A stretch of 64,000 bases of DNA from Patescibacteria group bacterium (GTDB taxonomy: Bacteria > Patescibacteriota > Microgenomatia > UBA1400 > PJMF01): the NCBI GenBank assembly GCA_049322655.1, contig JBMORP010000006.1, positions 128,410 through 192,409 of the forward strand. The letters run 5' to 3'. Below, one piece after another: positions 4,827 to 25,309 of the stretch (the stretch's first letter is position 1; every line of letters begins with the position of its first letter). The notes beneath the pieces were generated by a model that saw only the letters and a program-made list of their open reading frames with translations, was not told where the DNA came from and did no database searches. The position numbers were made by a program, and so were the translations under genes.

Positions 4827-5743
4827 TTTGTTAGTTTTCTGTAATTAATAGCTATTAAGTTATAAATTAGATAAAAAAATAGTAAATAGTATTTAGTGGT
4901 TAATTTTTTAGTTAAGTTAGGACCAAGTTCTTTTTTAACTAGATTCAAGATTTTAAAATTAGGAAATTCAATAATTAGTTGCTGGGCGACAATATTTAAA
5001 TAATATTTTAAAAATGAATTATTATCCAAAAGAGATTGGTACTTTTTTGCTAAACCTGTTATACCAAAAATAATTCTTTTTTTATCAGAGGACATATTGT
5101 TATTGTGTCTTCTAATTAAAACTAATGGCTCTTTTACTAGATCAACTAAGTATTTTTGACTAATTCTAAGCCACATTTCCCAGTCTTCAGCAGCAACAAG
5201 ATTTTCATCAAAGAGTCCAACTTGATCAAAACATTCTCTTCTTATTAAAACCCCACTACCACTAGCAGAAATTTTATTTCCTGAAGCTAATTCGGAATGA
5301 ATACGGCCTTTTAGGGTTTTAATTGTTTTAAAACTAGGATAATTAATTAATTTTTTTCCGTTTTGATCAATGTCTTCATAATCACAATATACTAAACCTA
5401 ATTGTTTGTTATTTTGTTTGTTAAATATGGCAAATTGTTTTTCTAATTTTTTACCCAGCCAAAGATCATCTGAATCTAAAAAAGCAATATATTCTCCTGT
5501 TGCTTTTTTAATACCAGTATTTCTAGAAGCGCTCAACCCTTTATTATTTTGATAAATATATTTAATTATTGGATATTTTTTACTAAATTCAGACACTATT
5601 TTTCGAGTTTGGTCAGTAGAACCATCATCAACAATAATAATTTCTTTTGGTGGCAATGACTGATTGAGAACAGAATCAATGCATTCACCGATGAAATCAG
5701 CATTGTTGAAAGTTGGAATAATAACACTTATTTTATTTTTCAT
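4823..5743 (-). CDS. Glycosyltransferase family 2
   Basis: ISVIIPTFNNADFIGECIDSVLNQ...IIIVDDGSTDQT...FLDSDDLW. Confidence 0.8.
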   Translation of the reverse strand: MKNKISVIIPTFNNADFIGECIDSVLNQSLPPKEIIIVDDGSTDQTRKIVSEFSKKYPIIKYIYQNNKGLSASRNTGIKKATGEYIAFLDSDDLWLGKKLEKQFAIFNKQNNKQLGLVYCDYEDIDQNGKKLINYPSFKTIKTLKGRIHSELASGNKISASGSGVLIRRECFDQVGLFDENLVAAEDWEMWLRISQKYLVDLVKEPLVLIRRHNNNMSSDKKRIIFGITGLAKKYQSLLDNNSFLKYYLNIVAQQLIIEFPNFKILNLVKKELGPNLTKKLTTKYYLLFFYLIYNLIAINYRKLTK

Positions 5744-6914
5744 TAACTAACTTTTTATAAAGAGATTCATATTTTTTACTTATTATTTTCCAATCGTATT
5801 TTGCTTTATTTTTACTAAATTCTTTTATTGAATTTCTTTTATCTGTTGGTAAGTTTTTAATAATTTTGTTAAGTTGAAAGGCAGCTGGTAATACTTTTAG
5901 TTTTGTTAATCCCTTTTTAATTTTTTGGGAAGCTAAAACATGTCCCAAGCCAGATTTTTTAACTAGAATTTTGATATTTCCAACATCTGTAGCAGCGAAT
6001 GGTAGTTTTGCCGCAATTGCCTCATAGATTACCAGTGGAGCACATTCTACATTGGATGGGAAAAAGAACAAATCAGCTTCAGAAAAAAGCGATATTGTTT
6101 CCTCTCTAGTGAGCTCTTTGACAAAAAGTTGTTTATGATCAATTTTTCTTAAAATAGAGTTATTAAATTTTTTCTCTGAATTTATACATTTTTTACTACA
6201 ATTTGAGGATTCGTTTTTAGCTACAATAATTAAAGACACTCTCTTGTGGGGCAATATGTTCAAAGTATTAATAGCTTCTCTATGTCCTTTCGCACCAGAA
6301 TGAGATCCTACTAATAAAAGAGTAAGATTACCTTTTCTGATACCAATTTTTTCTTTTATATTTAAACTTTTATTATTAAACTTAGCAAAATCAGCAGCAT
6401 TATTGATTTCAATTAAATTTTTAAGACCATGATTTTTAGCAAAAACATAATCTTGATAGTTTTTTGCCGGAAAAACTAAGGCATCATAGTTAGCCAACCA
6501 AGTTGGCATTTTAGTAAAGTAATCTTTATACTCCTTAATGTTTAATCCGGAGAAACCACAGGGAACAAAAATCTTTTTAGCTTTAATCTGAGTTAATTTA
6601 TCTATAATTGAATCGGTAGCCCATTGCTGAGCAGCATAGTTCATAACTACATCAAATTTAGAATTAACAACAAAATCAATATATTTTTTAACTTCTCCAT
6701 GTAAACCAAATGCTCTATTTCCAGAAATTTTAAATTCTTTTATTTTTACTCCGTTTAAAATTTTAAACTTTCTATCAGATAACTGTGTAGTAGCAACAGT
6801 AACATCATGTCCAATTTTAACTAAATGTTCACTGATTTGCTTAACAACTTCTTGAGCTCCTCCAACTGATGGGTCATAAAATTCTACTGTATGGAGTATT
6901 TTCATTTTTTTCAT
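5733..6914 (-). CDS. Glycosyltransferase family 4 (GT1 clan)
   Basis: N-terminal MKILHTVEFYDPSVGGAQEV; C-terminal E-X7-E region FFFPSNVECAPLVIYEAIAAKLP. Confidence 0.75.
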   Translation of the reverse strand: MKKMKILHTVEFYDPSVGGAQEVVKQISEHLVKIGHDVTVATTQLSDRKFKILNGVKIKEFKISGNRAFGLHGEVKKYIDFVVNSKFDVVMNYAAQQWATDSIIDKLTQIKAKKIFVPCGFSGLNIKEYKDYFTKMPTWLANYDALVFPAKNYQDYVFAKNHGLKNLIEINNAADFAKFNNKSLNIKEKIGIRKGNLTLLLVGSHSGAKGHREAINTLNILPHKRVSLIIVAKNESSNCSKKCINSEKKFNNSILRKIDHKQLFVKELTREETISLFSEADLFFFPSNVECAPLVIYEAIAAKLPFAATDVGNIKILVKKSGLGHVLASQKIKKGLTKLKVLPAAFQLNKIIKNLPTDKRNSIKEFSKNKAKYDWKIISKKYESLYKKLVNEK

Positions 6915-7672
6915 AATAATTTAAGTCCATTAATTAGAATGATAATTAAATTTTTTAAATATAATTTTTTTAGATTAAATAAAAATATTGAAATAAATAA
7001 ATTTAATTTTACTTTTTGTTGAGATAATGAATTATTTCTAATACTGTTACTAGGATCATCTCGATAAATAATTAGTGGTTGTGGCAGATAAACCATTTTT
7101 AAACCTAATGAAGCGATCTTTAACCATAAATCATAATCTTCGGTGGCTCTTAGATTTTTATTTTCATTAAATCTTAAATTTTTTATAATTTTTGTTTTTA
7201 CTAAAACTGAACTATTTATAACGACATTATTTTTTAAAAGATTATTTAAATTTAATTGATAAGTTTGACTAGTTGGAAAATATGTTTTGTTGGTTTTTAA
7301 AACTTGAGCATTAGTAGAAATAAAGTCGGCATTTTTAGTTTTAAGAGTGGCTAATTGAATTTTTAATTTATTTTTAAGCCATTGATCATCATCATCTAAA
7401 AAACTTACCAATGATCCGGTAGCTAATTTTAGTCCATGATTTCTTGTCACAGCTGGTAAGCCAGTGTGTTTATTTTTTAGATAAATAATTCTTTGATCTT
7501 TTTTTTGCAAACCTTTTACCAGATTCTCAGTTTCAATTTCAGAACCATCATCAGAAACAATTATTTCTAGGTGTTTATAGGTTTGAGTTTGAACACTAGA
7601 AATCGCCTTTTTTAAAAATTGAGGTCGATTATAGGTTGGAATAATGACTGAAATTTTTTCTATTTTGCCCAT
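6911..7672 (-). CDS. Glycosyltransferase family 2
   Basis: ISVIIPTYNRPQFLKKAISSVQTQ...IIVSDDGS...FLDDDDQW. Confidence 0.75.
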   Translation of the reverse strand: MGKIEKISVIIPTYNRPQFLKKAISSVQTQTYKHLEIIVSDDGSEIETENLVKGLQKKDQRIIYLKNKHTGLPAVTRNHGLKLATGSLVSFLDDDDQWLKNKLKIQLATLKTKNADFISTNAQVLKTNKTYFPTSQTYQLNLNNLLKNNVVINSSVLVKTKIIKNLRFNENKNLRATEDYDLWLKIASLGLKMVYLPQPLIIYRDDPSNSIRNNSLSQQKVKLNLFISIFLFNLKKLYLKNLIIILINGLKLL

Positions 7673-8310
7673 GTTTGATTAAGCTGCTTTTTAAAGTCTT
7701 TTAGCCAAGTTTTTAAAAGTCTTACTTCTGTCGGTGAATTATCAACAAGATATGTCTCAAGATATTTAGTAGCTATTTTGATTGCGGTAGTTTTCGTAAT
7801 TTTGTTATTGTTTTTTTGAGCAATTATTTCTACGTTACAAGTATCTTTATATTTAGTTTCATTTATTTTTAAAACGTCAAAACCACAATCATTAAATAGT
7901 TCTTTTAGATTATTTTTTGAGTACCCGTCAAAGTGAATCGCCCAAAATTGCTCTTGTGAGCCAAAAATGTGCCTAAGTGCTACGTTTTTTTGTCTTAATT
8001 TTGAAAATGGGCTTAAAACAACTTTTGCACACCTATTAAAATCAGGAACTTCAACTCTAACTATACCATCTTTAGTTAGCCAGGATCTCCATGATAGAAG
8101 CAAAGCAATAGCTTGTGCTCTGGAGAAATGTTCAAAAACATGATGAAGTCTGACTTCATTAATTGAATCATTTTTAAATTTTAATTTAGTAATATCTGCG
8201 TATTTATCTGCTACAGATTTAGTTTGGACAGTATGATTTTTACTAGGAAAATCAATATTTATATAACCATCGAAGTAAATTTCTCCACAGCCTAAATGTA
8301 ATTTAGTCAT
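7660..8310 (-). CDS. Class I SAM-dependent methyltransferase (small Methyltransf_11/23-like)
   Basis: LHLGCGEIYFDGYINIDF glycine-rich motif I followed by an acidic loop; 216 aa. Confidence 0.5.
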   Translation of the reverse strand: MTKLHLGCGEIYFDGYINIDFPSKNHTVQTKSVADKYADITKLKFKNDSINEVRLHHVFEHFSRAQAIALLLSWRSWLTKDGIVRVEVPDFNRCAKVVLSPFSKLRQKNVALRHIFGSQEQFWAIHFDGYSKNNLKELFNDCGFDVLKINETKYKDTCNVEIIAQKNNNKITKTTAIKIATKYLETYLVDNSPTEVRLLKTWLKDFKKQLNQTWAK

Positions 8311-9698
8311 ATTTTTATTTTTTCTAAAAAACTACTTATAAATTTGGGTTTTTTTGATTTTTCAATTTCATTAAACCATTTGTCAACTTTTTTTATATTT
8401 AAAATATTAGAAATAATTTTTTTATCTAGTTTATCTAAGTGAGGTAAAATAATGGTTATAGCCAGAAGTGACAAGTTGTTTTTTTTAGATTCTCTATTCC
8501 AATATGAGCTAGTTGAAACTCGATGAAAATAAAATGAATCTTTCAAAACATAAATTTTAAAATTTGAAGCTATTTGTCTAAAACCAAATCCCCAAGTATC
8601 TAGTGCTTGCACATCTTCTGGATATCTACCAGCTTTTAACCAACTATTTTTGGTATATAAATAATTTCCACTAGCTGATGGGTGTCTATAAGTAACGAAG
8701 AAATCATTTAAACCATAAGATTCTTTATTAAATTTCCATGAGTGAGTAATGTTATTTTTATTTTTTTGAAAAAATTTTAATTCAGCAAAAGAAATGGCTT
8801 CTCGATAATTATTGATTAATGATTTCTTTAATTTTTCTATGGATTTATTTGTCAAAATATTATCTGAATCTAAACAAAAAATAAGTGGATTTTTGGCATT
8901 TTCTACAGCGGTGTTTCTAGCTGCCCCACCACCCTTATTTATTTTATGTCTAAAAACTTTTAGATCTTTATTTTTCTTCTTTAAATTAGTGGCTAATTCT
9001 AGAGTTTTATCAGTTGACATATCATCAACAATGATGACCTCATCTCCATCTTCAAAGTTAGTAGAGTAAATGGAATTAACTGTTTCAACCAATGTATCTG
9101 CACAGTTAAATGCTGGAATAATAAAGCTAATATTTATTTTTTTCTTTTCTACCCACCAAACTCCACTTGGATAGTAATTTATTTTCCAATTAAACCTATT
9201 AAAAAATTCATCTACAGCTCTTTTTACACCAGTAAAATTAGGGTGATTGTAATCATGACCAGCTATTATGCCACCGACTTTTATTTTGTTAAACCAAAGA
9301 ACAATGTCATTCTTAACTCCATCATACGAATGGTCAGCATCGATATATATAAAATCAAGTTTATCTATTTTATTGACAGCCTTTGCAGAAGTTAATCTTA
9401 ATAATTTACTTCTGTTTTTAAATTTAGCTAATCTTTCTTTAGTAAATTTATAAAGTTGGTCAAATTTCTTTTGCGAAATATTCATCGGATCATCATATGA
9501 TTCAAAATTTTTATATGGATCAATTGAAAATAAAAAAGCTTTAGTTTTTTCTAAAATTTTTTCAGAGTGTCCACCATAGGCAACTCCAACTTCAGCTCCA
9601 ACTTTAAGTTGCTTTTTATTCACTACTTTCCAAAGAACATCATATGATTTGGACCACTCTTTTTCAGCTATTTGGCTTTTTTCTTTAATTGTTTGCAT
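8307..9698 (-). CDS. Bifunctional methyltransferase (TylF/MycF-like, N-terminal) plus GT2 glycosyltransferase (C-terminal)
   Basis: N-terminal half VGVAYGGHSE...YIDADHSYDGVKND...GGIIAGHDY (macrocin-O-MT-like); C-terminal half ISFIIPAFNCADTLVETVNSI...VIIVDDMSTDKT...CLDSDN (GT2). Confidence 0.65.
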   Translation of the reverse strand: MQTIKEKSQIAEKEWSKSYDVLWKVVNKKQLKVGAEVGVAYGGHSEKILEKTKAFLFSIDPYKNFESYDDPMNISQKKFDQLYKFTKERLAKFKNRSKLLRLTSAKAVNKIDKLDFIYIDADHSYDGVKNDIVLWFNKIKVGGIIAGHDYNHPNFTGVKRAVDEFFNRFNWKINYYPSGVWWVEKKKINISFIIPAFNCADTLVETVNSIYSTNFEDGDEVIIVDDMSTDKTLELATNLKKKNKDLKVFRHKINKGGGAARNTAVENAKNPLIFCLDSDNILTNKSIEKLKKSLINNYREAISFAELKFFQKNKNNITHSWKFNKESYGLNDFFVTYRHPSASGNYLYTKNSWLKAGRYPEDVQALDTWGFGFRQIASNFKIYVLKDSFYFHRVSTSSYWNRESKKNNLSLLAITIILPHLDKLDKKIISNILNIKKVDKWFNEIEKSKKPKFISSFLEKIKI

Positions 9699-9705
9699 AA
9701 AATTG

Positions 9706-11340
9706 TCACTTTATTAAATCACAAAAAATATGATCTTCATCTCTAGAATTCTTGGGGTCAGGTCTATATTCTAAAGGTAAATTTTTTGCTAATGATCTAT
9801 CTCTACCTGAAAATCTAACTTGTTTATAACCAACCTTGATTGCAATTTCCTTTAAATATTGAGGGGTTAAAATGTTTTTGTGAACATAATCATCCCAAAT
9901 TCCAGTCCCAATACCATCATAACCGTCTTTAAATTTGGTTTGTCTGTTCTTTAATGAAGGAAAAAGGCTAGGAGTACTAATTCGATGAACTGATCCAGGC
10001 TTAAGAACTCTGTATACCTCAGCTAAAAGTAGGATTTGTTCTTTTTGATTCAAGTGCTCTATAAAATCTTCATGAAATACTACTTCTACAGAGCTACTTG
10101 GTAACGGGATTTTATGTTTGGTTACATCAAAGAGATAAAAATCTTTTCTAGTTCCCCTAATTTGAGCTGGATAAAATTTGTTGGTGTAGTATTTTAAGTA
10201 TTTTTGGTAATGTTCATACCTGATATCAAGATTTATCCAGTTTTTTAAAACTCTTGGACCAGAACCCAAATGTATTTTTTTAACTTTTGTATCTTTGGCT
10301 AATTTTTTTAATCTTTCGTAATCTTTTCTTTTATGATTCTTTTTTGTAAAGCTTAAATCAACAGTTTTTATGTCTTTGATATGTTTTTTTAAGAAATAAT
10401 AAATATCTATTAAGTAAAGTTTGACTAAAAAGTAAGGAACATACTTAAAAGTATCACTGTTTAAATATTTAAATTTGCTAAGTATTTTTTTAATATAAAA
10501 TTTTGTTCCGAGATCATCATTGTATTTTTTATAAATTTTAAAAAGATTTAAATAAAAATAATTGGCTAAGTTGTAGTTTATTTCTTTATTAAATTGACCA
10601 TTAAAATAATTATTTAATGTCTCACAGGTTTGAACTCCACCATCATCAAATATTTTTATTTCATCATTTTTATTATTTGGTTTTGAGATGCCATTATCAT
10701 GTCTCCTATACACTCCCATTACATCTTTAAAATATTTCATCTTCCCATATTTAGTAAAAATTATTTGCAATAACCAATCGGCACCACTAATATTTTGGGA
10801 AATTTTATAAAATTCTCTCAAGATTTGCTTGTTATTTTTAAAAACTAAAGAACACGTAGCCCCAGAGCTACCAAATTTTAAAAGATCATTAATAGTTGAG
10901 ATAGATCTATAATTTTTTCCAAGCCACTCAATGTATTTATTTTCATTTTGATAATAAACAAAGACGTTATGAGAAGTAATTGTAAAATCAGGATTTTTTT
11001 CTAAAAAATCTACCTGTTTTTGTAATTTTAGTGGGTCTGTCCAATAGTCATCACCTTCACAGTAAGCGATGTATTTACCAGTAGCTTTTTGTAAAATTAT
11101 TGGAGTAATTTTTTTGCCAAGTGAATATTGATTCTTTTTTTGAATAATTAATTTTATTATTTTTGGGTATTTTTTTTGAAAATTATTTATAATTCTTTGT
11201 GTTTTATCAGTAGAAGCATCATCATGAATGATTATTTCTATAGGAAAGTTAGTTTTTTGATTTAAAAATCCATTGATAGTCTTTTTTATATATTTTTCTT
11301 GATTGTATGTTATGCAGCAAATAGATAAAAGTGGTTTCAC
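9706..11340 (-). CDS. Bifunctional GT2 glycosyltransferase (N-terminal) plus SAM-dependent methyltransferase (C-terminal)
   Basis: N-terminal LSICCITYNQEKYIKKTINGFLNQ...IIIHDDASTDKT...YCEGDDYW; C-terminal IHLGSGPRVLKNWINLDI, resembling the motif I of the 7660-8310 methyltransferase. Confidence 0.65.
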   Translation of the reverse strand: MKPLLSICCITYNQEKYIKKTINGFLNQKTNFPIEIIIHDDASTDKTQRIINNFQKKYPKIIKLIIQKKNQYSLGKKITPIILQKATGKYIAYCEGDDYWTDPLKLQKQVDFLEKNPDFTITSHNVFVYYQNENKYIEWLGKNYRSISTINDLLKFGSSGATCSLVFKNNKQILREFYKISQNISGADWLLQIIFTKYGKMKYFKDVMGVYRRHDNGISKPNNKNDEIKIFDDGGVQTCETLNNYFNGQFNKEINYNLANYFYLNLFKIYKKYNDDLGTKFYIKKILSKFKYLNSDTFKYVPYFLVKLYLIDIYYFLKKHIKDIKTVDLSFTKKNHKRKDYERLKKLAKDTKVKKIHLGSGPRVLKNWINLDIRYEHYQKYLKYYTNKFYPAQIRGTRKDFYLFDVTKHKIPLPSSSVEVVFHEDFIEHLNQKEQILLLAEVYRVLKPGSVHRISTPSLFPSLKNRQTKFKDGYDGIGTGIWDDYVHKNILTPQYLKEIAIKVGYKQVRFSGRDRSLAKNLPLEYRPDPKNSRDEDHIFCDLIK

Positions 11341-12176
11341 ATCAAACTTTCAGCGAAAATAATTGGGCGTCTAAAAAATTCACTATTATTTTTTATATTT
11401 ATATCCTCTAGAAAATTAGTTAGAAGTTTTTCTGAATTATTATCTAAAAGATCAACTAATATTTTTTTATTAATCTCTTGATAAACAAAATGATCTTTTT
11501 TTCTATGTGGATATATTATTTTTAATATTTTATAACTTTCGTTATTAAATAATTTGATTAAATATTTAATTTTTTCAATATCTTTTTCTAAAGAAATTAT
11601 TGGTTTTTGTTTGTTACCTCCCCAGTTAAAACCCATTTGGAAAATCAAGTATTTAGTTCTCGTTGCCATTTTTTTTAAATACTTACTAATATAAAGATTA
11701 AAATCATCAAGATTACTTATTTTATCTTGAGAAAAATCAACTCCGGCATGATGCAAAACATTAAATAATAAAATTAGATCAGTTTTTTTTAATTTATTAA
11801 TATTATTAAGAACTACTGACTCTTTATTTAAAGATAGATTGCTGATTTTAAAACAGTCTTTTATTAATTCCATAAATTGGCAATGAATTTCATTTTGTTC
11901 TATGGCTGTTATTTTTTTATTTGTAAAATCATGTGCTAATGATAAAGAAAAAAATCCACTATTAGCTCCAATATCTGCAATACTATCAATATGGTATTTA
12001 TTTAATATTTTTTTTAAAAAAGCGTATCTTGATAAATCGTCTCTCCACAAATGATCTAGCACTTCATTATAATCAAGTTCACCTTTTAAAAAGTCAGGAA
12101 TACTCTGATATCTGTAATGTTTTGAATTTTTGTTATAAAGATTCTTTAACTTATTTTTTAACGATTCTTTTTTCAT
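11337..12176 (-). CDS. SAM-dependent methyltransferase (FkbM-like)
   Basis: IADIGANSGFFSLSLA motif I in the FkbM-family style; 279 aa. Confidence 0.45.
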   Translation of the reverse strand: MKKESLKNKLKNLYNKNSKHYRYQSIPDFLKGELDYNEVLDHLWRDDLSRYAFLKKILNKYHIDSIADIGANSGFFSLSLAHDFTNKKITAIEQNEIHCQFMELIKDCFKISNLSLNKESVVLNNINKLKKTDLILLFNVLHHAGVDFSQDKISNLDDFNLYISKYLKKMATRTKYLIFQMGFNWGGNKQKPIISLEKDIEKIKYLIKLFNNESYKILKIIYPHRKKDHFVYQEINKKILVDLLDNNSEKLLTNFLEDINIKNNSEFFRRPIIFAESLM

Positions 12177-13264
12177 ATTCCAAGCTCCTTCATAAAAACT
12201 CTAATTGTATCTAACTTAAAATAGACATCATAAAAGAAGTGTTTGAGTAAAAAAACGATTAAATATCTTGGCTTTTTTATATACCAAGTAATTTCTTTAT
12301 TATTTTTAATATTCTCTATAAAGCCACCCAACCATAAATAAGTTGTTTTTTCTGTTTTGTTGTTTTTAATTTTTATATTTATATTATCCTCAATAAATTT
12401 AGTTAGAATTTCATCCTGTGTCTCTGCAATCAAATTCATTGGGCCCCATAGTCTCGGATTTGCTTCAATAAAGAAGAATTTATTTTTTATTTGCTTTACT
12501 TCAATCATTATCAATCCATGAAATTTTAAATCTTTTAAAATTCTTTCAAATTTGTAACTGATTGTTTTAAAGTGAAGATTAGATTTTTTAGCAAAAATTA
12601 TAGACTTTCCATTATATTGCTGAGCCAAATTTTTTTGTGATGACTTAAAAATTATTCCGTTCTTACTGATATAGTATAGAAGGTAATAACTTTGTCCATT
12701 AATATATTCTTGGTAAAAAAAGTCTCTTTGATCTTCTTTTAACAAAAAATTAGCTTTTTCTTGATTGTTAAATATTAAATATGGATATTTAGTCTCTTTT
12801 TTTATATTTACAATTGGTTTGGCAACAAATGGGTAATCTAGTTTAAATAGTTTTTTAAATTCTTTTGGAATTAAAATATCATTTTTCTTTAAATAATTGG
12901 CAAAAGATTTTTTATTACTTACTTTTAAATATAAACTTTTATTGACTAATGGAACTAAAATCTTATTTTTTAAAAGTATCAAATTGTTTTTCAATAAAAA
13001 TTGATTTAAAAATTCTGAGGTTGGTAATATAACTACATTATCAAAATTTATTTTTTTTCTGATAGTTATTATTTCTTTGGCACTCAGACTATCACTTTTT
13101 CTAGTAAAAATTACATTTTTTTTATATTTAGTTAGAAATACAAGATCAGTTTTACTTTTAGCAATAATAAAAAAATTGACATTATATTTTGAAAAAAGTC
13201 TGCAAATTACAATAATGGCTCTAAAGTTATAGTCAGAAAATATTAAAAAAGAAGTTTTTTTCAT
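12173..13264 (-). CDS. ATP-grasp domain enzyme (carboxylate-amine ligase candidate)
   Basis: C-terminal FFFIEANPRLWGP, the E-x-N-P-R signature of ATP-grasp folds; central YPFVAKP...; 363 aa. Confidence 0.5.
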   Translation of the reverse strand: MKKTSFLIFSDYNFRAIIVICRLFSKYNVNFFIIAKSKTDLVFLTKYKKNVIFTRKSDSLSAKEIITIRKKINFDNVVILPTSEFLNQFLLKNNLILLKNKILVPLVNKSLYLKVSNKKSFANYLKKNDILIPKEFKKLFKLDYPFVAKPIVNIKKETKYPYLIFNNQEKANFLLKEDQRDFFYQEYINGQSYYLLYYISKNGIIFKSSQKNLAQQYNGKSIIFAKKSNLHFKTISYKFERILKDLKFHGLIMIEVKQIKNKFFFIEANPRLWGPMNLIAETQDEILTKFIEDNINIKIKNNKTEKTTYLWLGGFIENIKNNKEITWYIKKPRYLIVFLLKHFFYDVYFKLDTIRVFMKELGI

Positions 13265-13266
13265 TT

Positions 13267-14346
13267 TTAGTAAATTTCATTAACTATACTTTTTATTTCT
13301 TCATTTGAAATATCATGAAAAAGAGGTAGACATACAATTCTACAGGAAATATTCTCTGATATGGGCATTTTTTGATTTTTAATATATGGCAATTCTGAGA
13401 GTGAAGGATAAAAATATCTTCGTGGGTAAATATTTTTTTTATTTAGTCTTTCAATGACTTCCAAAAGTTTTTTTTCAGAATTAAAAATAATTGGATAATA
13501 GGAATAGTTTGTTTTACAATTTTTATCAACTAATATCTTAGAAATAAAGCTTTTATTGGCTAGTAATTTATCATACAGTTTAGAAGCTTTTTTTCTTCGA
13601 GAGATTAATTTTTTAACATATTTTAAATTAATCAAACCCATTGCTGAGTGAAATTCAGAAATTTTACCATTGATACCAACACCCCAATAATCATATTGGC
13701 CATTATGACCAAAGTTTCTCATATATTCTATTTTATGAGCTAACTTCTTATCATTTGTAATGATTACTCCACCCTCTACAGTATGAAAAACTTTAGTAGC
13801 GTGAAAACTAATAATAGAAATATCTCCATAACTGGCTAGGCTTTTTTCGTAATATTTTGACCCAAATGTATGAGCAGCATCATAAATAACTTCAAGATTA
13901 TATTTTTTAGCAATCTTTTTTATGACTTCAACATTGGTGGGATAGCCAAAAATATGAGTAGCTAAAATAGCTCTGGTTTTTTTAGTAATTTTTTGTTCTA
14001 TTTCTTTTGGATCAATCATCAAAGTTTGTGGGTCTATATCTGCAAAAATTGGTTTGTATCCTTCCCAAACAATTGCTGAAGTAGTCGCTACATAAGAAAA
14101 AGGAGTGGTAATTATTTCATCACGTTTATCTTTTTCTAAAGATTTAATAGCTATCTGTAGAGCAGTGGTTCCATTGTTAACTAGGAATAAATACTTTACA
14201 CCTAAAAACTTTTTAAGTTTTTCTTCTAAATTTCTAGTTAATTTACCGTTGTTTGTTAACCAGCCACTAGACCAGATTTTTTCTAAATATTCAAAATATT
14301 CTTTTTTATTTGGTAGAAAACTTTTAGTTACATTAATTATTTTCAT
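13267..14346 (-). CDS. DegT/DnrJ/EryC1/StrS-family PLP-dependent sugar aminotransferase
   Basis: FLVNNGTTALQIAIKSL, ILATHIFGYP, SFHATKVFHTVEGG (PLP Lys region); 359 aa. Confidence 0.85.
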   Translation of the reverse strand: MKIINVTKSFLPNKKEYFEYLEKIWSSGWLTNNGKLTRNLEEKLKKFLGVKYLFLVNNGTTALQIAIKSLEKDKRDEIITTPFSYVATTSAIVWEGYKPIFADIDPQTLMIDPKEIEQKITKKTRAILATHIFGYPTNVEVIKKIAKKYNLEVIYDAAHTFGSKYYEKSLASYGDISIISFHATKVFHTVEGGVIITNDKKLAHKIEYMRNFGHNGQYDYWGVGINGKISEFHSAMGLINLKYVKKLISRRKKASKLYDKLLANKSFISKILVDKNCKTNYSYYPIIFNSEKKLLEVIERLNKKNIYPRRYFYPSLSELPYIKNQKMPISENISCRIVCLPLFHDISNEEIKSIVNEIY

Positions 14347-15539
14347 TGAGTTCTTTTGTTCTCACTAAGTATGTTTATTATTCCAATATTTATTTTTTTA
14401 TTTTTGTTAGACCATTTTGGAATAATCTTAAATTTACTAAGTCTTTCTCCATAGAACCAGTCTTTAGAGTCATCTTGGTAACCTCCAATGTAAATATAGT
14501 AATCATCTGGTCTTAATAAATTTTCTTTTATTATAAATTCAGATACAAACTCTCCTTTTTTAATTGTTTCTGGTTTACTAGTATCTTGAATAGAAAAAAT
14601 TCTACAATCTTGATTGTAAATTGATAGGGTAATTCTAATATTTTCAATTTTTTCTTTAACTTTTCCAAATACTTTGATTTTTAATTCTTCACTTGGATTA
14701 ATAGTTGCACCATTAGTTAATCCATTTATTCTTACTTTATTAATACTTACCTTTTTGGCTAAAGGGCCAAAAAATTCACTTTCGTTAAAAGAAGTATTAT
14801 TTAGATATTTAGCTATTACTGTATTTGTTTTTCCAATTTGTAAAATGTTTCCTTCTTTTAAAAAGATTGTTTTTTCACAAAGAGTGTTAATAGAACCCAT
14901 GTCGTGACTAACAAAAATAACTGTTTTCCCAGATTTAGCTAGATCATTCATTTTACCTAAGCACTTTTTTTGAAACTCAGCATCACCTACAGCTAGTACT
15001 TCATCTACTAGTAAAATATCAGCATCTAAGTGAGCAGCCACAGCAAAAGCTAAGCGAACATACATACCAGAGGAATATCTTTTAACAGGTGTATCTAAAA
15101 ATTTTTCTATTCCAGAAAACTTTACAATTTCATTAAACTTACTTTGAATTTCTTGTTTACCCATGCCCAAAATAGCACCATTAAGATAGATATTTTCTCG
15201 GCCGGTTAATTCTGGGTTAAAACCGGTACCAACCTCTAAAAGTGAAGCAATTTTGCCTTTCATAGTAATTTTGCCTTCAGTTGGTTCAACAATTCTAGAA
15301 AGAATTTTAAGTAATGTAGATTTGCCGGCTCCATTACGGCCAATAATTCCTACTACTTCTCCTTTTTTAATTTCAAAACTAACATTCTTTAATGCCCAGA
15401 ATTCTTCACTATTTTGCTTTTTAAATATTTTTTCTGGTAACTTCATTAGTTGGTCACGAAGTGTCACATAGGTATCTTGCTTACCTATTTTGTATTTTTT
15501 ACTTAAATTCTCAACTTTAATAACAACGTCTTTTTTCAT
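14343..15539 (-). CDS. wzt: ABC transporter ATP-binding protein, Wzt/TagH-like, with a C-terminal extension of about 150 aa (candidate glycan-binding domain)
   Basis: Walker A GIIGRNGAGKSTLLKIL, signature YSSGMYVRLAFAVA, Walker B ILLVDEVLAVGD; extra C-terminal beta-rich domain after about residue 250. Confidence 0.85.
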   Translation of the reverse strand: MKKDVVIKVENLSKKYKIGKQDTYVTLRDQLMKLPEKIFKKQNSEEFWALKNVSFEIKKGEVVGIIGRNGAGKSTLLKILSRIVEPTEGKITMKGKIASLLEVGTGFNPELTGRENIYLNGAILGMGKQEIQSKFNEIVKFSGIEKFLDTPVKRYSSGMYVRLAFAVAAHLDADILLVDEVLAVGDAEFQKKCLGKMNDLAKSGKTVIFVSHDMGSINTLCEKTIFLKEGNILQIGKTNTVIAKYLNNTSFNESEFFGPLAKKVSINKVRINGLTNGATINPSEELKIKVFGKVKEKIENIRITLSIYNQDCRIFSIQDTSKPETIKKGEFVSEFIIKENLLRPDDYYIYIGGYQDDSKDWFYGERLSKFKIIPKWSNKNKKINIGIINILSENKRTQ

Positions 15540-16361
15540 TTAAATAATATCCGTAAAGTATTTTTCCACTGATTTAAAATAAAACGCTCCAGAAACAAAA
15601 ATAAGAGTACTGGTTAGTAAAGCTATGGTTAAAGCAGTCCAGTTGAAGTTATTTAAGCCTAAAATTAGGCTTCTATGAGCTTCAATAAAACCAGTCATTG
15701 GGTTCAAATATAGTAAACTTTTAAACCTAGGCGCAATCGAAACTGGATAAATCACTGGAGTAAAAAACAACATCAGCTGAATAAAAAATGGAACTGCATA
15801 ACGAACATCTCTGTACTTAACATTAATTGCAGATAACCATAGACCTATTCCAGAAGCTAAAAACCAGGTTGTTATTGCTAACAACGGAATAGTGAAAATA
15901 AAAACAGACGGTACTATTTTAAAATAAATCAATAAAACTACTAATAACAAAGCTGAGATTAAATAGTCTACTAATCCGGTCATAGTTGAGGCTAAGGGAA
16001 TAATAATTCTTGGAAAATAAACTTTAGTAATTAAGTTAGTACTACCAATTAAACTGCTACTAGCTGCTGAAATGGCAGATGTAAAATACATCCATAAAAT
16101 TAGGCCTGAGTAAGAAAAGATTGGATATGGAACTCCATCAGAAGCTACATTCATGATGGTGCCAAAGAAAAATGAAAAGACTACCATTGTGGTAAATGGT
16201 TGAAGAATAGCCCACAGACCACCAATTAGGGTTTGTTTATATCTAACCTTGATATCTCTCACCACAAACGTCCAAAATAGCTCTCGATATTCCCAAATCT
16301 CCTGCCAATCAATAAATTGAAATCTGCCCTTTGGCTTGATAATGGTTATTTTTTCACTCAT
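15540..16361 (-). CDS. wzm: ABC-2 type polysaccharide exporter permease (Wzm/TagG-like)
   Basis: 273 aa with six predicted TM helices and the ABC-2 layout; immediately downstream of the Wzt-like ATPase. Confidence 0.8.
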   Translation of the reverse strand: MSEKITIIKPKGRFQFIDWQEIWEYRELFWTFVVRDIKVRYKQTLIGGLWAILQPFTTMVVFSFFFGTIMNVASDGVPYPIFSYSGLILWMYFTSAISAASSSLIGSTNLITKVYFPRIIIPLASTMTGLVDYLISALLLVVLLIYFKIVPSVFIFTIPLLAITTWFLASGIGLWLSAINVKYRDVRYAVPFFIQLMLFFTPVIYPVSIAPRFKSLLYLNPMTGFIEAHRSLILGLNNFNWTALTIALLTSTLIFVSGAFYFKSVEKYFTDII

Positions 16362-16362: not shown

Positions 16363-17298
16363 TTATTTATTATCTTGATACCATTCCACGGTTTTCTTTA
16401 AGCCTTCCTCAAAAGAAACCTTGGATTCAAAGCCAAATTCTTTTTTTGCTCTGGAAACATCTAGTTTTCTGCGTGGTTGACCATCTGGTTTATCTGCATT
16501 AAACATCACTTTGCCTTTGTAACCCACCACTTTTTTGATAGTTTGAGCTAGCTCTTTGATAGAAATCTCAAAACTAGAACCCAAGTTAACTGGCTCGCTA
16601 CTATTATAACTTTCTGTGGCCAAAACAATGGCTCTGGCAGCGTCTTCAACATATAAGAACTCACGAGTGGGTTTACCAGTTCCCCAGATTTCAACATTTG
16701 GTTTATTTTTTTCTTTAGCATCAACAAATTTTTTAATCAAAGCCGGAATCACGTGAGAGGATTTTGGATCAAAATTATCAGCAGGACCATACAAATTGAC
16801 TGGCAATAAGTAAATAGCATTAAAATTATATTGTTGGCGATATGCTTGAGCTTGAACTAACAACATCTTTTTTGCCAAACCATAGGGAGCATTAGTCTCC
16901 TCTGGATAGCCATTCCATAAATTTTCTTCTTTAAATGGCACTGGAGTAAACTTGGGATAAGCACAAATCGTCCCAATGCCGACAAACTTCTTAACCTTGG
17001 CTTTTCTCGCTTCTTCCATTAGGTGAATACCCATCATTAGATTGTCATAAAACAAAGTCCCAGGAAATTCTTGGTTGTAGCCAATTCCACCAACATTGGC
17101 AGCTAGGTGAATCACGATATCTACATTTTTGACTAATTTGGCGCAATCAGCTTTTTCACGCAAATCATAATCTTTAGACCGAGGAATAATGATTTTTTTG
17201 GGATTTAGAGTTTTAAGTAACTGAACCAAATGAGATCCAAGAAATCCGGCTCCACCTGTCACTAGAATAGTTTTATTTTTCCAAAAAGATTTTTTCAT
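16363..17298 (-). CDS. fcl: GDP-L-fucose synthase (GDP-4-keto-6-deoxy-D-mannose 3,5-epimerase/4-reductase)
   Basis: ILVTGGAGFLGSHL, HLAANVGGI, CAYPKF, NAPYGLAKK (YxxxK), LPVNLYGPADNF, SHVIPAL, as in GMER/WcaG. Confidence 0.85.
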   Translation of the reverse strand: MKKSFWKNKTILVTGGAGFLGSHLVQLLKTLNPKKIIIPRSKDYDLREKADCAKLVKNVDIVIHLAANVGGIGYNQEFPGTLFYDNLMMGIHLMEEARKAKVKKFVGIGTICAYPKFTPVPFKEENLWNGYPEETNAPYGLAKKMLLVQAQAYRQQYNFNAIYLLPVNLYGPADNFDPKSSHVIPALIKKFVDAKEKNKPNVEIWGTGKPTREFLYVEDAARAIVLATESYNSSEPVNLGSSFEISIKELAQTIKKVVGYKGKVMFNADKPDGQPRRKLDVSRAKKEFGFESKVSFEEGLKKTVEWYQDNK

Positions 17299-17323: not shown

Positions 17324-18784
17324 CTAAAAATTCTTGGTCACTTTAGGAGATAAATAACCATTTATTTGATCAAATTCTATAAGAATTTTTTGACCAGCTT
17401 CAGTTTCATAATCTGATCTAATAATATCACTGAAGTTAAATATTTCTCCTTTTCCAACTGAGTTTTTATTCTTACTGAAAATATTTACCTGTCTATCACC
17501 CAACTTAGAGGAAAAATATCCCAGTTCGACTACTTTCTCTTGATCATCATGATCAATAAAAATAGTAGCTCCGGTTGGTAGATCATGATATAAAAAATTA
17601 TTTAGACGACCAATTTCTTGATATGTTTGATAGTGAAATTGTTGATATGAAACACCCCTCTTAATAACTCCAACCCAATTTAACCCTCTTTTTTGGAAAA
17701 ATCCAATAAACAAAAAAAATAACAAAAGTGATGAGAAAAAAACCTGTTTTTTGATTTTTCTAAATAATTCTTTATTCCAAAAGCTAATTTCAATAAAAAT
17801 AAACATGAATCCAAAGAAAAGAGGAAGATAATGATATCTCTCAAGCTGATATTCCCAGCTAAAAACAAATAAAAGTGATTCTATAAATCCAATTAATATA
17901 ACAAATAACCATAAATTCCTAATTAAAAACCTCTTTATATTTTTAAAACTAAACTCTTTTATCAGCCTAATACATGAAATAAAACCTATTCCCAATAAAG
18001 GCAGATAAAACTCCGCAAATTCCAGCCTTGTAACTAGTAAACTATGCCAAATTCGATTAGGCGCAAAACTCATTGAAGAAGAATATCCCTTAAATTTTGG
18101 CATTAATAAGTAAAAAATAAGGCCCTGTAAAAACAAGGTAAAAAATAATAATATCAGTCTTTTTTTGTTTCTAAATTTTTGAAATAAATGGGTAAATATA
18201 AAGAATCCGAGCATTGGAAAAATCAATAAAGTGGTTTCTTTTGTACCTAGAGAAAACATTAAAAGAATATTTCCAATCAAGAAATCTTTGATGTTTAATT
18301 TATCTATCCTTATTTTCCTTAACCACACTAAAAACCAGATTATTCCCAATACCTGCCTTGGTTCTGCTGTTCCCAGTCTGTAAAAATTATCAATAGTTGC
18401 AGGGACAATCAAAAAAACAAGCAACCCAGATTTTAAAAGATTTTTATTAATATTTTCAAAACTAGTTATAAATGTCCAAATACCAATCAGGGTTAGTGAA
18501 AGAACAATTGCTTGACCAAACCAAAAAATAAAAGGGTTAACTCCACCAAGTAAATAAAGAGCCACAAAATACAATTGATAAAAAGGCCTCGTCCTTCCTA
18601 AATGACTTTCAAATAAAATGCTTTGCCAATTCTTTCCCTCTATAAAGTTTTTTGCATTCAGCAAACTTTGGCCATCATCTATATAGGAAAAATTAGGATT
18701 TACTATGTTTGGAGATAAATAAACAAAAGAAATCAATATTAACCAAAAGAAGGGTTTTTTAATAAGTTTTTTGATAAATATCAT
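17324..18784 (-). CDS. Polytopic membrane protein, probable GT-C fold glycosyltransferase
   Basis: More than 10 predicted TM helices; first extracytoplasmic loop SYIDDGQSLLNAKNF...HLGRTRPFY resembles the DD/DE loop of GT-C enzymes. Confidence 0.35.
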   Translation of the reverse strand: MIFIKKLIKKPFFWLILISFVYLSPNIVNPNFSYIDDGQSLLNAKNFIEGKNWQSILFESHLGRTRPFYQLYFVALYLLGGVNPFIFWFGQAIVLSLTLIGIWTFITSFENINKNLLKSGLLVFLIVPATIDNFYRLGTAEPRQVLGIIWFLVWLRKIRIDKLNIKDFLIGNILLMFSLGTKETTLLIFPMLGFFIFTHLFQKFRNKKRLILLFFTLFLQGLIFYLLMPKFKGYSSSMSFAPNRIWHSLLVTRLEFAEFYLPLLGIGFISCIRLIKEFSFKNIKRFLIRNLWLFVILIGFIESLLFVFSWEYQLERYHYLPLFFGFMFIFIEISFWNKELFRKIKKQVFFSSLLLFFLFIGFFQKRGLNWVGVIKRGVSYQQFHYQTYQEIGRLNNFLYHDLPTGATIFIDHDDQEKVVELGYFSSKLGDRQVNIFSKNKNSVGKGEIFNFSDIIRSDYETEAGQKILIEFDQINGYLSPKVTKNF

Positions 18785-20517: not shown

Positions 20518-20525
20518 ATAAACTC

Positions 20526-25308: not shown

Positions 25309-25309
25309 T

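What the first reader, a model, noticed from the sequence alone, without database searches (positions are those of the whole stretch)
7660..16361. ABC-transporter-dependent glycan module with a Wzt C-terminal extension and multiple methyltransferases: candidate methyl-cap chain termination
The Wzt-like ATPase (14343-15539, 398 aa) carries an extra C-terminal domain of about 150 aa after a canonical NBD. In ABC-transporter-dependent O-polysaccharide systems (E. coli O8/O9a, Klebsiella), that domain is a carbohydrate-binding module recognising a terminal methyl or phosphomethyl cap installed by a methyltransferase (WbdD).

Immediately upstream lie five methyltransferase domains (479-1222, 7660-8310, 8307-9698 N-terminal, 9706-11340 C-terminal, 11337-12176). 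Two of them are covalently fused to GT2 domains. This recalls the multifunctional methyl-/rhamnosyltransferase WsaE of the Geobacillus stearothermophilus S-layer glycan pathway.

The hypothesis is a homopolymeric glycan whose non-reducing end is methylated and read by Wzt for export.
Basis: partly seen in the sequence, partly recalled or inferred. Interest (0 to 1): 0.65.

Follow-up and report, generated by a model that had tools for sequence, protein, structure and literature searches.

The report
Wzt-gated surface glycan operon, CPR bacterium
A tiny uncultured bacterium of the Candidate Phyla Radiation carries a long operon that builds a sugar polymer in the cell. It exports the polymer through a pump whose extra domain has the fold used in other bacteria to check that the chain end is capped. 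This is a recognisable, fairly ordinary system in an unusual host, and the methyl nature of the cap is plausible but unproven.

Summary
Genes 15540-16361 and 14343-15539 encode a Wzm/Wzt ABC exporter. The last ~145 residues of Wzt model confidently (pLDDT 93) as a beta-sandwich. Its 16 best PDB matches are all from the three solved Wzt carbohydrate-binding domains, including the Aquifex one bound to 3-O-methyl-mannose.

Five methyltransferase-like domains follow in the same minus-strand operon. Three pass Pfam thresholds and two are sub-threshold. Two are fused to GT2 glycosyltransferases. They group with glycan-assembly enzymes, not rRNA or small-molecule methylases.

- The host is a Candidatus Pacebacteria (CPR) bacterium, so this is not LPS.
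- Ten glycosyltransferase domains, a GDP-fucose route and an N-acylated amino-sugar route argue against a homopolymer.
- No methyltransferase protein has the long coiled-coil ruler typical of terminators, none resembles WbdD, and no kinase domain was found.
- No single methyltransferase co-varies with this binding-domain subtype across related loci.
- One methyltransferase-like gene travels with an ATP-grasp cassette that tailors the amino sugar.

Cap-gated export is well supported. A methyl cap is a reasonable guess (about 0.45). Verdict: a new member of a known kind, of modest interest.

The parts
15540..16361 (-). Wzm, the ABC-2 permease of the glycan exporter (273 aa)
   Evidence: Pfam ABC2_membrane 61 bits. 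It is 87% identical to the Wzm of syntenic locus L081. It abuts wzt with no gap.
14790..15539 (-). Wzt nucleotide-binding domain (residues 1 to ~250)
   Evidence: ABC_tran 89.7 bits. Walker A, signature, Walker B and H-loop are all present. The best PDB sequence match is A. aeolicus Wzt 8dku, E 5e-70.
14346..14774 (-). Wzt C-terminal carbohydrate-binding domain (residues ~256-398), a divergent Wzt_C subfamily
   Evidence: AF2 pLDDT 93, beta-sandwich. The top 16 Foldseek PDB hits are all Wzt carbohydrate-binding domains. A profile of the subfamily hits A. aeolicus 8dky/6o14 at E 7e-11. Pfam Wzt_C scores 26.1 bits, below its threshold.
13267..14346 (-). DegT/DnrJ/EryC1-type sugar aminotransferase (makes an amino-deoxy sugar nucleotide)
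   Evidence: Pfam 328 bits. The best NCBIfam hits are DesI, PseC and WecE-like, all below equivalog cut-offs. It overlaps the wzt stop by 4 nt. It is conserved after wzt in L081 at 59% identity.
12173..13264 (-). ATP-grasp ligase, a candidate N-acylase of the amino sugar
   Evidence: Pfam ATP-grasp_3 26.3 bits, above the threshold of 23.2. Weak PylC-like NCBIfam hit. In L081 a hexapeptide acyltransferase replaces it together with the next gene.
11337..12176 (-). 279-aa methyltransferase-like protein, part of the amino-sugar tailoring cassette
   Evidence: Only sub-threshold hits to GidB, Methyltransf_12, CbiT and CmoB. DIGANSG motif. No orthologue in L081-L090.
9706..11340 (-). GT2-methyltransferase fusion (544 aa): GT2 at 1-300, one long helix at 301-349, methyltransferase module at 355-544. 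Leading candidate for an 'add a sugar and methylate it' enzyme
   Evidence: Pfam GT2 83.6 bits and Methyltransf_11 27.2 bits. AF2 mean pLDDT 87 with this domain layout. Orthologue in L081 at 49% over the full length. The methyltransferase module is standalone in L083 and fused to other N-terminal domains in L089, L090 and P0263.
8307..9698 (-). Methyltransferase-GT2 fusion (463 aa): Methyltransf_24 at ~1-185, GT2 at ~186-463
   Evidence: Pfam Methyltransf_24 45.5 bits and GT2 101.8 bits. The GT2 part is the only component found in all six compared loci. The Methyltransf_24 part is present only in L089 and L090.
7660..8310 (-). 216-aa small class-I methyltransferase-like protein, a paralogue of the 9706-11340 methyltransferase module
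   Evidence: Methyltransf_23 at E 1.2e-3, below threshold. Motifs HLGCG, VFEHF and LTKDG. 51-61% orthologues in L081, L083 and L089. The family has 3452 cluster representatives, often inside giant GT/methyltransferase proteins.
1219..7672 (-). Seven glycosyltransferase genes: GT2 6911-7672, GT4 5733-6914, GT2 4823-5743, GT11 (fucosyltransferase family) 3933-4826, GT2 2941-3936, GT2 2102-2944, GT2-like 1219-2136
   Evidence: Pfam hits. Start and stop codons mostly overlap by 4 nt. GT4 and GT11 orthologues are present in L081, L085 and L089.
479..1222 (-). 247-aa Methyltransf_23 methyltransferase at the distal end of the operon
   Evidence: Pfam 39.3 bits, above the threshold of 27. 4-nt overlaps with both neighbours.
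1..482 (-). Start of a further ORF (MKKPSILIIGTADTIGGAAQ...) that runs off the window. The operon continues.
   Evidence: Read directly from the sequence.
16363..17298 (-). GDP-L-fucose synthase-like epimerase/reductase immediately before wzm
   Evidence: NCBIfam GDPFucSynFcl 303.5 bits over the full length. This is the best hit but below the 500-bit equivalog cut-off. 89%, 69% and 68% orthologues lie next to wzm in L081, L083 and L089.
17324..18784 (-). 486-aa polytopic membrane protein of unknown family. A GT-C-like or ligase-like role is inferred only.
   Evidence: No Pfam or NCBIfam hit. The sequence is hydrophobic. 48% orthologue at the same position in L081.

Best explanation
The region is the core of an ABC-transporter-dependent pathway for a cell-surface glycan in a Candidatus Pacebacteria (CPR / Minisyncoccota) bacterium.

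Proposed mechanism:
1. A heteropolymer is built on a lipid carrier at the cytoplasmic face by about ten GT2, GT4 and GT11 modules. It probably contains L-fucose and an N-acylated amino-deoxy sugar.
2. One or more methyltransferases modify the chain. The best candidates for making the non-reducing-end cap are the methyltransferases tied physically or evolutionarily to glycosyltransferases. These are the GT2-methyltransferase fusion 9706-11340, its small paralogue 7660-8310, and the Methyltransf_24-GT2 fusion 8307-9698.
3. The C-terminal carbohydrate-binding domain of Wzt recognises the finished chain end and licenses export through Wzm/Wzt.
4. Outside the membrane the glycan is presumably decorated by GT-C enzymes and fixed to the wall by the LCP ligase encoded in the window.

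Shown here: the exporter, the fold of the binding domain, the methyltransferase and GT domain content, the operon structure and the host lineage.

Inferred: that the binding domain binds a cap, that the cap is an O-methyl group, which enzyme adds it, and the final acceptor.

The confidence of 0.55 is for the whole statement. The exporter with cap-gated export alone rates about 0.85, and the methyl identity of the cap about 0.45.
For: Exporter and binding domain:
- Wzm and Wzt domains with intact ATPase motifs.
- The closest solved relative is A. aeolicus WzmWzt at E 5e-70, and the alignment runs into the binding domain.
- AF2 model at pLDDT 93. All 16 top PDB fold hits are Wzt carbohydrate-binding domains, including 8dky bound to 3-O-methyl-mannose.
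- The subfamily profile hits only A. aeolicus Wzt chains in the PDB, E 7e-11.
- The most conserved subfamily residues G352, G353 and W361, and the aromatic Y363, align with A348, L349, Y360 and W362. These are part of the A. aeolicus methyl pocket region.

Methyltransferases:
- Five methyltransferase-like domains lie in the same tightly overlapping operon, and two are fused to GT2.
- The 343-544 methyltransferase module recurs fused to GT2, GT8 or other N-terminal domains on contigs that also carry wzm/wzt.
- The 216-aa family sits inside multi-module GT/methyltransferase proteins. One example is P0362, with the order Methyltransf_24, 216-like domain, GT2, Methyltransf_11.
- Every related locus with this binding-domain subtype carries at least one methyltransferase.

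Literature:
- In all characterised systems with a Wzt binding domain, it binds a terminal cap and gates export (PMC11231755; PMC9445017).
- In G. stearothermophilus, a Gram-positive bacterium, the methyltransferase-GT enzyme WsaE makes a 2-O-methyl cap (PMC2943079).

Host: ArgRS is 74-80% identical to Ca. Pacebacteria proteins, and an LCP gene lies in the window.
Against: - No methyltransferase is shared by all loci with the window-type binding domain. L084 and L085 lack the 216-aa and HLGCG modules. L081, L083 and L085 lack the Methyltransf_24 domain.
- L089 and L090 share the window's methyltransferase set but have a different, canonical Wzt_C domain.
- The residues lining the A. aeolicus methyl pocket (L300, T346, A348, W362) are S, Y, G and Y here, so specificity cannot be read off.
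- No methyltransferase protein has a long coiled-coil ruler. There is only one 49-residue helix, partly low-confidence.
- No similarity to WbdD or any solved sugar methyltransferase at sequence level.
- The 279-aa methyltransferase-like gene co-swaps with the ATP-grasp gene against an acetyltransferase in L081, so it tailors the amino sugar.
- Methylation of internal residues is common in such glycans.
- No initiating phosphoglycosyltransferase lies in the window.
Confidence: 0.55

Rival explanations
1. The binding domain gates export, but the cap is a terminal sugar residue rather than a methyl group. It could be the N-acylated amino-deoxy sugar made by DegT and the ATP-grasp ligase, or a fucose, in analogy to the beta-Kdo caps of Klebsiella O12 and O4. 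The methyltransferases would decorate internal residues or the amino-sugar substituent.
For: - DegT follows wzt with a 4-nt overlap both here and in L081.
- Non-methyl caps read by Wzt binding domains are established, and the 5hno O12 domain is as good a fold match as the methyl-binding ones.
- Methyltransferase content is not conserved across loci with this binding-domain subtype.
- Pocket residues differ from the A. aeolicus methyl pocket.
Against: - DegT is likewise not conserved in L083, L084 or L085.
- The amino-sugar substituent differs between the window and L081 (ATP-grasp against acetyltransferase), although the Wzt proteins are 64% identical over the full length and the binding domains about 44%.
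- Methyltransferases are present in every such locus.
Confidence: 0.3
2. The C-terminal domain does not read a chain-end cap. It would bind internal repeat structure, serve only as a dimerisation or regulatory module, or be a relic. Chain length and export would then be uncoupled from methylation.
For: - The Pfam Wzt_C score is below threshold.
- No ruler-type terminator protein was found.
- No methyltransferase co-varies with the binding-domain type.
Against: - The domain is confidently folded, and the subfamily keeps strongly conserved residues (G352, G353, W361, R343, Y347) around the region equivalent to the A. aeolicus ligand site.
- Every Wzt binding domain studied experimentally binds the terminal structure.
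Confidence: 0.12
3. It is a WbdD-type system. A bifunctional kinase-methyltransferase with a coiled-coil molecular ruler would add a methyl-phosphate cap to a homopolymer, as in E. coli O9a or Klebsiella O3 and O7.
For: Several methyltransferases lie next to a Wzt with a binding domain. The kinase domain of the Klebsiella O7 terminator was not recognisable by sequence either.
Against: - No kinase domain was found in any ORF.
- No PDB sequence hit to WbdD from any methyltransferase.
- No long coiled coil in the GT2-methyltransferase model, and the other methyltransferase proteins are 216-463 aa with no spare length.
- Ten GT domains and two special sugar routes argue against a homopolymer.
Confidence: 0.04

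Closest known systems
Aquifex aeolicus WzmWzt O-antigen ABC transporter with carbohydrate-binding domain (PDB 7k2t, 8dku, 8dky, 6o14)
   Same: It is the best sequence match (E 5e-70) and the best fold match. It has the same NBD plus C-terminal beta-sandwich architecture and the same adjacent Wzm. The A. aeolicus domain binds a 3-O-methyl-mannose or 3-O-methyl-rhamnose cap.
   Different: - Only about 20% identity in the binding domain.
- Methyl-pocket residues L300, T346, A348 and W362 are S, Y, G and Y here.
- The window subfamily has an extra conserved C-terminal tail (W376...G386-x-x-N389...R396).
- The host has no outer membrane or LPS.
- The glycan here is probably a fucose and amino-sugar heteropolymer, not a rhamnan/mannan.
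Geobacillus stearothermophilus NRS 2004/3a S-layer glycan pathway (Wzm/Wzt, WsaE methyl-rhamnosyltransferase)
   Same: - A monoderm host.
- wzm-wzt is followed directly by overlapping GT genes.
- A methyltransferase domain is fused to GT2 domains.
- A low-GC glycan cluster.
- Wzt is proposed to read the methylated chain end.
   Different: - WsaE has one methyltransferase and two GT domains and builds a poly-rhamnan. Here there are two different single-GT fusions (GT2-methyltransferase and methyltransferase-GT2) and three further methyltransferase-like genes.
- No WsaB-type oligosaccharyltransferase or S-layer gene was identified.
- Direct homology to WsaE could not be tested.
E. coli O8/O9a (= Klebsiella O5/O3) WbdA/WbdD/Wzt polymerase-terminator system
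   Same: An ABC-transporter-dependent route. The Wzt binding domain has the same fold (2r5o among the top hits). Methylation is the candidate termination signal.
   Different: No WbdD-like sequence, no kinase and no long coiled-coil ruler. The product is not a mannan homopolymer, and there are many more GTs.
Klebsiella pneumoniae O12 (WbbB) and O4 systems with a beta-Kdo cap read by the Wzt binding domain
   Same: The binding-domain fold (5hno/5hnp are equally good matches). The principle that a terminal residue, not necessarily a methyl group, licenses export.
   Different: No Kdo transferase (GT99 or GT137) and no CMP-Kdo genes were seen in the window. No coiled-coil protein.
Mycobacterial galactan exporter Wzm-Wzt with extracytoplasmic GT-C elaboration and LCP ligation (arabinogalactan)
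   Same: The overall logic suggested by the window: Wzm/Wzt export, several GT-C membrane glycosyltransferases (one with an AftD-like hit), polyprenyl-phosphate-sugar-type GT2 genes and an LCP ligase.
   Different: Mycobacterial Wzt (about 260 aa) has no carbohydrate-binding domain. The parallel rests on gene content only.
Rhizobium etli CE3 O antigen (tri-O-methyl-fucose terminal residue, several methyltransferase genes). Recalled from memory, not verified in the library.
   Same: The combination of fucose, several O-methyltransferases and Wzm/Wzt export with a methylated terminal sugar.
   Different: It is a Gram-negative LPS.

Membership tests
Wzt (O-antigen/teichoic-acid-type ABC exporter ATPase) | ABC nucleotide-binding domain with intact Walker A, signature, Walker B and H-loop, and closest similarity to Wzt/TagH-type ATPases | tested here: met
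   ABC_tran 89.7 bits. Motifs GRNGAGKST, YSSGM, ILLVDE and SHD. The top PDB hits are A. aeolicus Wzt (5e-70), TarH, TagH and mycobacterial Wzt.
Wzt (O-antigen/teichoic-acid-type ABC exporter ATPase) | Adjacent, co-transcribed ABC-2 permease (Wzm) | tested here: met
   15540-16361 hits ABC2_membrane and abuts wzt.
Wzt carbohydrate-binding domain (Pfam Wzt_C, PF14524) | Score at or above the Pfam gathering threshold | tested here: not met
   26.1 bits against a threshold of 30.4, E 9.3e-6. Many homologues in the same family do carry a precomputed PF14524 hit, so this is a divergent member.
Wzt carbohydrate-binding domain (Pfam Wzt_C, PF14524) | Beta-sandwich fold superimposable on solved Wzt binding domains | tested here: met
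   AF2 pLDDT 93.2. Foldseek ranks 1-16 are all Wzt binding domains, with TM normalised to the target of 0.64-0.74 and probability 1.00.
Wzt carbohydrate-binding domain (Pfam Wzt_C, PF14524) | Conserved ligand pocket at the position of the A. aeolicus cap site | tested here: inconclusive
   Subfamily-invariant G352, G353 and W361 and the aromatic Y363 align to A348, L349, Y360 and W362. Other pocket positions align differently in the two alignments, and the residues differ.
Wzt carbohydrate-binding domain (Pfam Wzt_C, PF14524) | Binds the non-reducing terminal cap and is required for export | not testable with these tools
   This needs ITC, pull-down or a complementation experiment.
Polymerase-terminator glycan assembly (WbdD, WbbB, Klebsiella ORF6-O7 type) | [quoted passage not shown] | tested here: not met
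   The GT2-methyltransferase model has a single helix at 301-349, with pLDDT 54-63 in its middle. Residues 1 to ~320 match ordinary 320-aa GT2 proteins. The other methyltransferase proteins are 216-463 aa and fully accounted for by their domains. No dedicated coiled-coil predictor was run.
Polymerase-terminator glycan assembly (WbdD, WbbB, Klebsiella ORF6-O7 type) | Terminating modification enzyme encoded in the cluster with the binding-domain-bearing Wzt | tested here: inconclusive
   Five methyltransferase-like domains are present, but none co-varies with the binding-domain subtype. Activity is untested.
WbdD (E. coli O9a/O8 kinase-methyltransferase) | Sequence similarity to the WbdD methyltransferase or kinase domains | tested here: not met
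   PDB sequence searches with all four tested methyltransferase-bearing queries returned no WbdD chain. No kinase Pfam hit in any ORF.
WsaE-like multifunctional methyl-/glycosyltransferase | Methyltransferase domain covalently fused to GT2 domain(s) next to wzm/wzt | tested here: met
   8307-9698 carries Methyltransf_24 plus GT2, and 9706-11340 carries GT2 plus Methyltransf_11.
WsaE-like multifunctional methyl-/glycosyltransferase | Homology to WsaE itself, and rhamnosyltransferase specificity | not tested
Class I SAM-dependent methyltransferases (each of the five domains) | Pfam methyltransferase model at or above the gathering threshold | tested here: inconclusive
   Met for 479-1222 (39.3 against 27), the N-terminal part of 8307-9698 (45.5 against 26.3) and the C-terminal part of 9706-11340 (27.2 against 21.2). 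Not met for 7660-8310 (19 against 27) or 11337-12176 (23.4 against 27 and 21.1 against 30). 7660-8310 is rescued by paralogy to the 9706-11340 module and by its motifs. 11337-12176 remains weak.

The most novel reading that the evidence does not exclude
CPR (Patescibacteria) bacteria would use a previously undescribed subfamily of Wzt carbohydrate-binding domains. In this reading, chain termination is done by ruler-less 'add-and-methylate' GT-methyltransferase fusion enzymes. The conserved 343-544 methyltransferase module would be grafted onto interchangeable GT domains, capping a fucose and amino-sugar heteroglycan that is then wall-anchored. That would be a termination and quality-control logic distinct from the coiled-coil polymerase-terminator complexes of Gram-negative O antigens. 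It could bear on how these episymbionts present and vary their surface.
Probability: 0.2. Interest if true: 0.5.

Novelty: new member of a known kind. Interest (0 to 1): 0.3.

Why it matters
It places the cap-recognising Wzt export checkpoint, known from Gram-negative O antigens and one Gram-positive S-layer glycan, in an uncultured CPR bacterium. That bacterium devotes at least 64 kb to glycan synthesis. Surface glycans are likely central to host attachment and phage evasion in these tiny episymbionts.

The locus also offers compact, separable GT-methyltransferase fusions and a divergent binding domain. These could be expressed to define a new cap specificity. Nothing here overturns current models.

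Tried and rejected
- Exact-match look-ups of the window's Wzt and ArgRS found no record.
- The GTDB genome scan gave only relatives at 50% identity or less, from unrelated phyla, so it was not informative for taxonomy. ArgRS homologues gave the lineage instead.
- Rfam found nothing in the window.
- Promoter and terminator scans were no better than shuffled sequence.
- PDB sequence searches with the isolated binding domain, the 216-aa protein and the Methyltransf_24 domain gave only chance hits.
- I tried to identify the cap methyltransferase by co-occurrence with the binding-domain subtype. This used six related loci, then tblastn over all 91 fetched loci. No methyltransferase tracks the binding domain. 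The apparent enrichments (216-aa 3/5 against 3/82, GT4 3/5 against 1/82) rest on five loci, two of which are duplicates, and reflect relatedness. I rejected them as evidence.
- The Foldseek search with the whole GT2-methyltransferase model returned only GT2 hits, so the methyltransferase domain's structural neighbours were not obtained.
- Literature searches for CPR plus Wzt found nothing.
- I rejected the homopolymer idea, the WbdD-like kinase-methyltransferase idea, and the idea that all five methyltransferases serve capping.

Full report
**Observation**

The window carries a long series of co-directional minus-strand ORFs from about 30405 down to base 1. Most are separated by 0-8 nt or overlap by 4 nt. 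A further ORF starts at 482 and runs off the window. GC content is 24-29% over bases 1-16,000, against 36-40% at 22-40 kb.

Pfam assigns the following:
- 15540-16361: ABC2_membrane (Wzm).
- 14343-15539: ABC_tran plus a sub-threshold Wzt_C hit (26.1 bits against 30.4).
- 13267-14346: DegT aminotransferase.
- 12173-13264: ATP-grasp.
- 9706-11340: GT2 plus Methyltransf_11.
- 8307-9698: Methyltransf_24 plus GT2.
- 479-1222: Methyltransf_23.
- Seven further GT2, GT4 and GT11 genes between 1219 and 7672.

7660-8310 scores Methyltransf_23 at E 1.2e-3. 11337-12176 has only weak GidB and Methyltransf_12 hits.

The 216-aa protein carries HLGCG / VFEHF / LTKDG motifs. It is a detectable paralogue of the C-terminal methyltransferase module of 9706-11340. 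The 279-aa protein has a DIGANSG motif but no solid family assignment.

The same gene order, at 97% protein identity, is present on an independent JGI metagenome contig (L091).

**The Wzt C-terminal domain**

The ATPase motifs are intact. The closest solved protein is A. aeolicus Wzt (8dku, E 5e-70), and the alignment continues beyond the nucleotide-binding domain to residue 351.

I modelled residues 240-398 with an alignment of 47 trimmed homologues (A2). The mean pLDDT is 93.2 and the model has nine strands.

Foldseek against the PDB gave Wzt carbohydrate-binding domains, and nothing else, as the 16 best hits:
- A. aeolicus, including 8dky with bound 3-O-methyl-D-mannose.
- The Kdo-binding O12 domain (5hno, 5hnp).
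- E. coli O9a (2r5o).

Generic lipid-binding beta-sandwiches such as NPC2, GM2 activator and RhoGDI follow at lower TM. A profile of the subfamily hits only A. aeolicus Wzt chains in the PDB, at E 7e-11.

The paper on the A. aeolicus transporter defines the cap site (PMC9445017). It comprises I299, L300, N313, T346, A348, H350, trap loop 352-356 and W362, together with Y233 of the hinge helix.

In my alignments the almost invariant G352, G353 and W361 and the aromatic Y363 of the window's subfamily fall on A348, L349, Y360 and W362. Other pocket positions align inconsistently at about 20% identity, and the residues differ.

So the domain is a real Wzt carbohydrate-binding domain, constrained around the known ligand site. 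Its specificity cannot be read from sequence.

**Host and context**

ArgRS (30430-32196) is 74-80% identical to proteins named Candidatus Pacebacteria and 94% identical to an unnamed contig. NCBI places these in Minisyncoccota, kingdom Bacillati.

The whole window is a glycan island. It holds an LCP ligase, a Wzx-like flippase, at least seven GT-C/PMT_2-like membrane proteins, RmlB, an RmlD-like gene, Gmd and a sugar dehydrogenase.

The epimerase next to wzm is GDP-L-fucose-synthase-like: 303 bits, the best hit, but below the equivalog cut-off. A bona fide Gmd and a GT11-family gene are also present.

The product is therefore not LPS O antigen. It is a wall- or protein-linked glycan. With ten GT domains downstream of wzt plus fucose and amino-sugar routes, it is unlikely to be a homopolymer. 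No initiating phosphoglycosyltransferase is in the window.

**Comparative loci**

The nearest Wzt is 64% identical (P0001). It lies in a syntenic contig, L081, with this gene order: Fcl-like, Wzm, Wzt, DegT, hexapeptide acyltransferase, GT2-methyltransferase (551 aa), GT2, 216-aa protein, GT2-GT2, GT2, GT4, GT11, GT2.

There a single acetyltransferase replaces the window's ATP-grasp plus 279-aa pair. This places that methyltransferase-like gene in amino-sugar tailoring rather than capping.

Three more loci with the same binding-domain subtype (L083, L084, L085) carry methyltransferases, but different ones: FkbM, Methyltransf_23 and DUF268. In L083 there are also standalone copies of the 216-aa and HLGCG modules.

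Conversely, L089 and L090 share the window's methyltransferase complement. They have the HLGCG module on other N-terminal domains and the Methyltransf_24-GT2 fusion, and L089 also has the 216-aa protein, GT4, GT11 and Fcl. Yet they have a different, canonical Wzt_C domain.

Only the GT2 domain of 8307-9698 occurs in all six compared loci. A tblastn survey over all fetched loci added nothing reliable. Comparative genomics therefore does not single out a capping methyltransferase.

**The methyltransferases as glycan enzymes**

- The methyltransferase module at 343-544 of the 9706-11340 protein is a mobile unit. It is found fused to GT2, GT8 or unknown N-terminal domains.
- The 216-aa family has 3452 cluster representatives. 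It is frequently embedded in 500-3300 aa proteins with GT2, GT4, FkbM, Methyltransf_24 and even sulfotransferase domains. P0362 (1120 aa) strings together Methyltransf_24, a 216-like domain, GT2 and Methyltransf_11, which is effectively a fusion of neighbouring window genes.
- The AF2 model of the GT2-methyltransferase protein (pLDDT 87) shows GT2 at 1-300, a single 49-residue helix with a hydrophobic start and a basic end, and a Rossmann-type methyltransferase at 355-544. The first ~320 residues match ordinary stand-alone GT2 proteins.

It fails a hallmark of characterised terminators, the extended coiled-coil ruler (PMC11231755).

No kinase domain and no WbdD similarity were found.

**Conclusion**

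Well supported (about 0.85): a Wzm/Wzt ABC-transporter-dependent glycan pathway whose Wzt carries a functional-looking carbohydrate-binding domain. By analogy with every studied case, this domain should couple export to a completed chain end.

Plausible but unproven (about 0.45): that the end is O-methylated, most economically by the GT-fused or GT-associated methyltransferases (9706-11340, 7660-8310, 8307-9698).

The main rival (about 0.3) is a terminal sugar cap with methylation elsewhere.

The closest known systems are the A. aeolicus WzmWzt transporter (fold and sequence) and the G. stearothermophilus S-layer glycan pathway with WsaE (host type and methyltransferase-GT fusion; PMC2943079).

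This is a new member of a known kind in a poorly studied lineage. Interest is modest.

Noticed in passing
window 1-64000: Essentially the whole 64-kb window is devoted to glycan synthesis. That is a striking investment for a CPR bacterium with a presumably small genome. It includes at least seven GT-C/PMT_2-like membrane proteins (23668-25308, 27125-28723, 28720-30405, 34434-36101, 39796-41538, 49610-51397, 59885-61459). It also holds a Wzx-like flippase (48120-49613), an LCP ligase (51439-52575), RmlB, an RmlD-like gene, Gmd and a UDP-Glc/GDP-Man dehydrogenase.
   Followed up: partly
window 1-16000 against 22000-40000: GC content drops to 24-29% across the wzm/wzt-distal part of the operon, against 36-40% nearer ArgRS. 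This is the pattern reported for horizontally exchanged O-antigen and S-layer glycan clusters.
   Followed up: no
window 11337-13264 against L081 9239-9781: There is a cassette swap next to DegT. The window has an ATP-grasp ligase plus a 279-aa methyltransferase-like gene. The syntenic locus L081 has a single hexapeptide acyltransferase there. This suggests strain-specific N-acyl decoration of the same amino sugar.
   Followed up: partly
window 1-482 (minus strand): An ORF beginning MKKPSILIIGTADTIGGAAQ... starts at 482, overlaps the stop of the 479-1222 gene by 4 nt and runs off the window. The operon is therefore longer than what is visible.
   Followed up: no
window 17324-18784; also 22499-23668: Polytopic membrane proteins inside the operon have no family assignment. 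The 486-aa protein has a 48% orthologue at the same place in L081. The 389-aa protein has a faint PIG-V mannosyltransferase hit. They may be unrecognised GT-C enzymes or ligases.
   Followed up: no
window 18781-21550: A GT2 - GT2 - DUF2304 - GT2 arrangement lies upstream of wzm. It resembles polyprenyl-phosphate-sugar synthase and small-membrane-protein sets that feed extracytoplasmic GT-C enzymes. The DUF2304 and GT2 neighbours are conserved in L081, L083 and L088.
   Followed up: no
P0361-P0510 (relatives of window 7660-8310): The 216-aa methyltransferase-like domain is widespread, with 3452 cluster representatives. It is often embedded in giant 1000-3369 aa proteins that combine GT2, GT4, FkbM, Methyltransf_24 and sulfotransferase domains. 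Pfam does not recognise the domain itself above threshold.
   Followed up: partly
L089 6563-7768 and L090 7715-8923: Related CPR-type loci with the same methyltransferase and GT core carry a UDP-galactopyranose mutase (GLF) and a TylF-type methyltransferase directly after wzt. This implies galactofuranose-containing variants of this glycan family.
   Followed up: no
window 9706-11340, residues 296-349: The linker helix of the GT2-methyltransferase fusion starts with a hydrophobic stretch (VPYFLVKLYLIDIYYFL) and ends highly basic. It may be a membrane-association element rather than a spacer.
   Followed up: no
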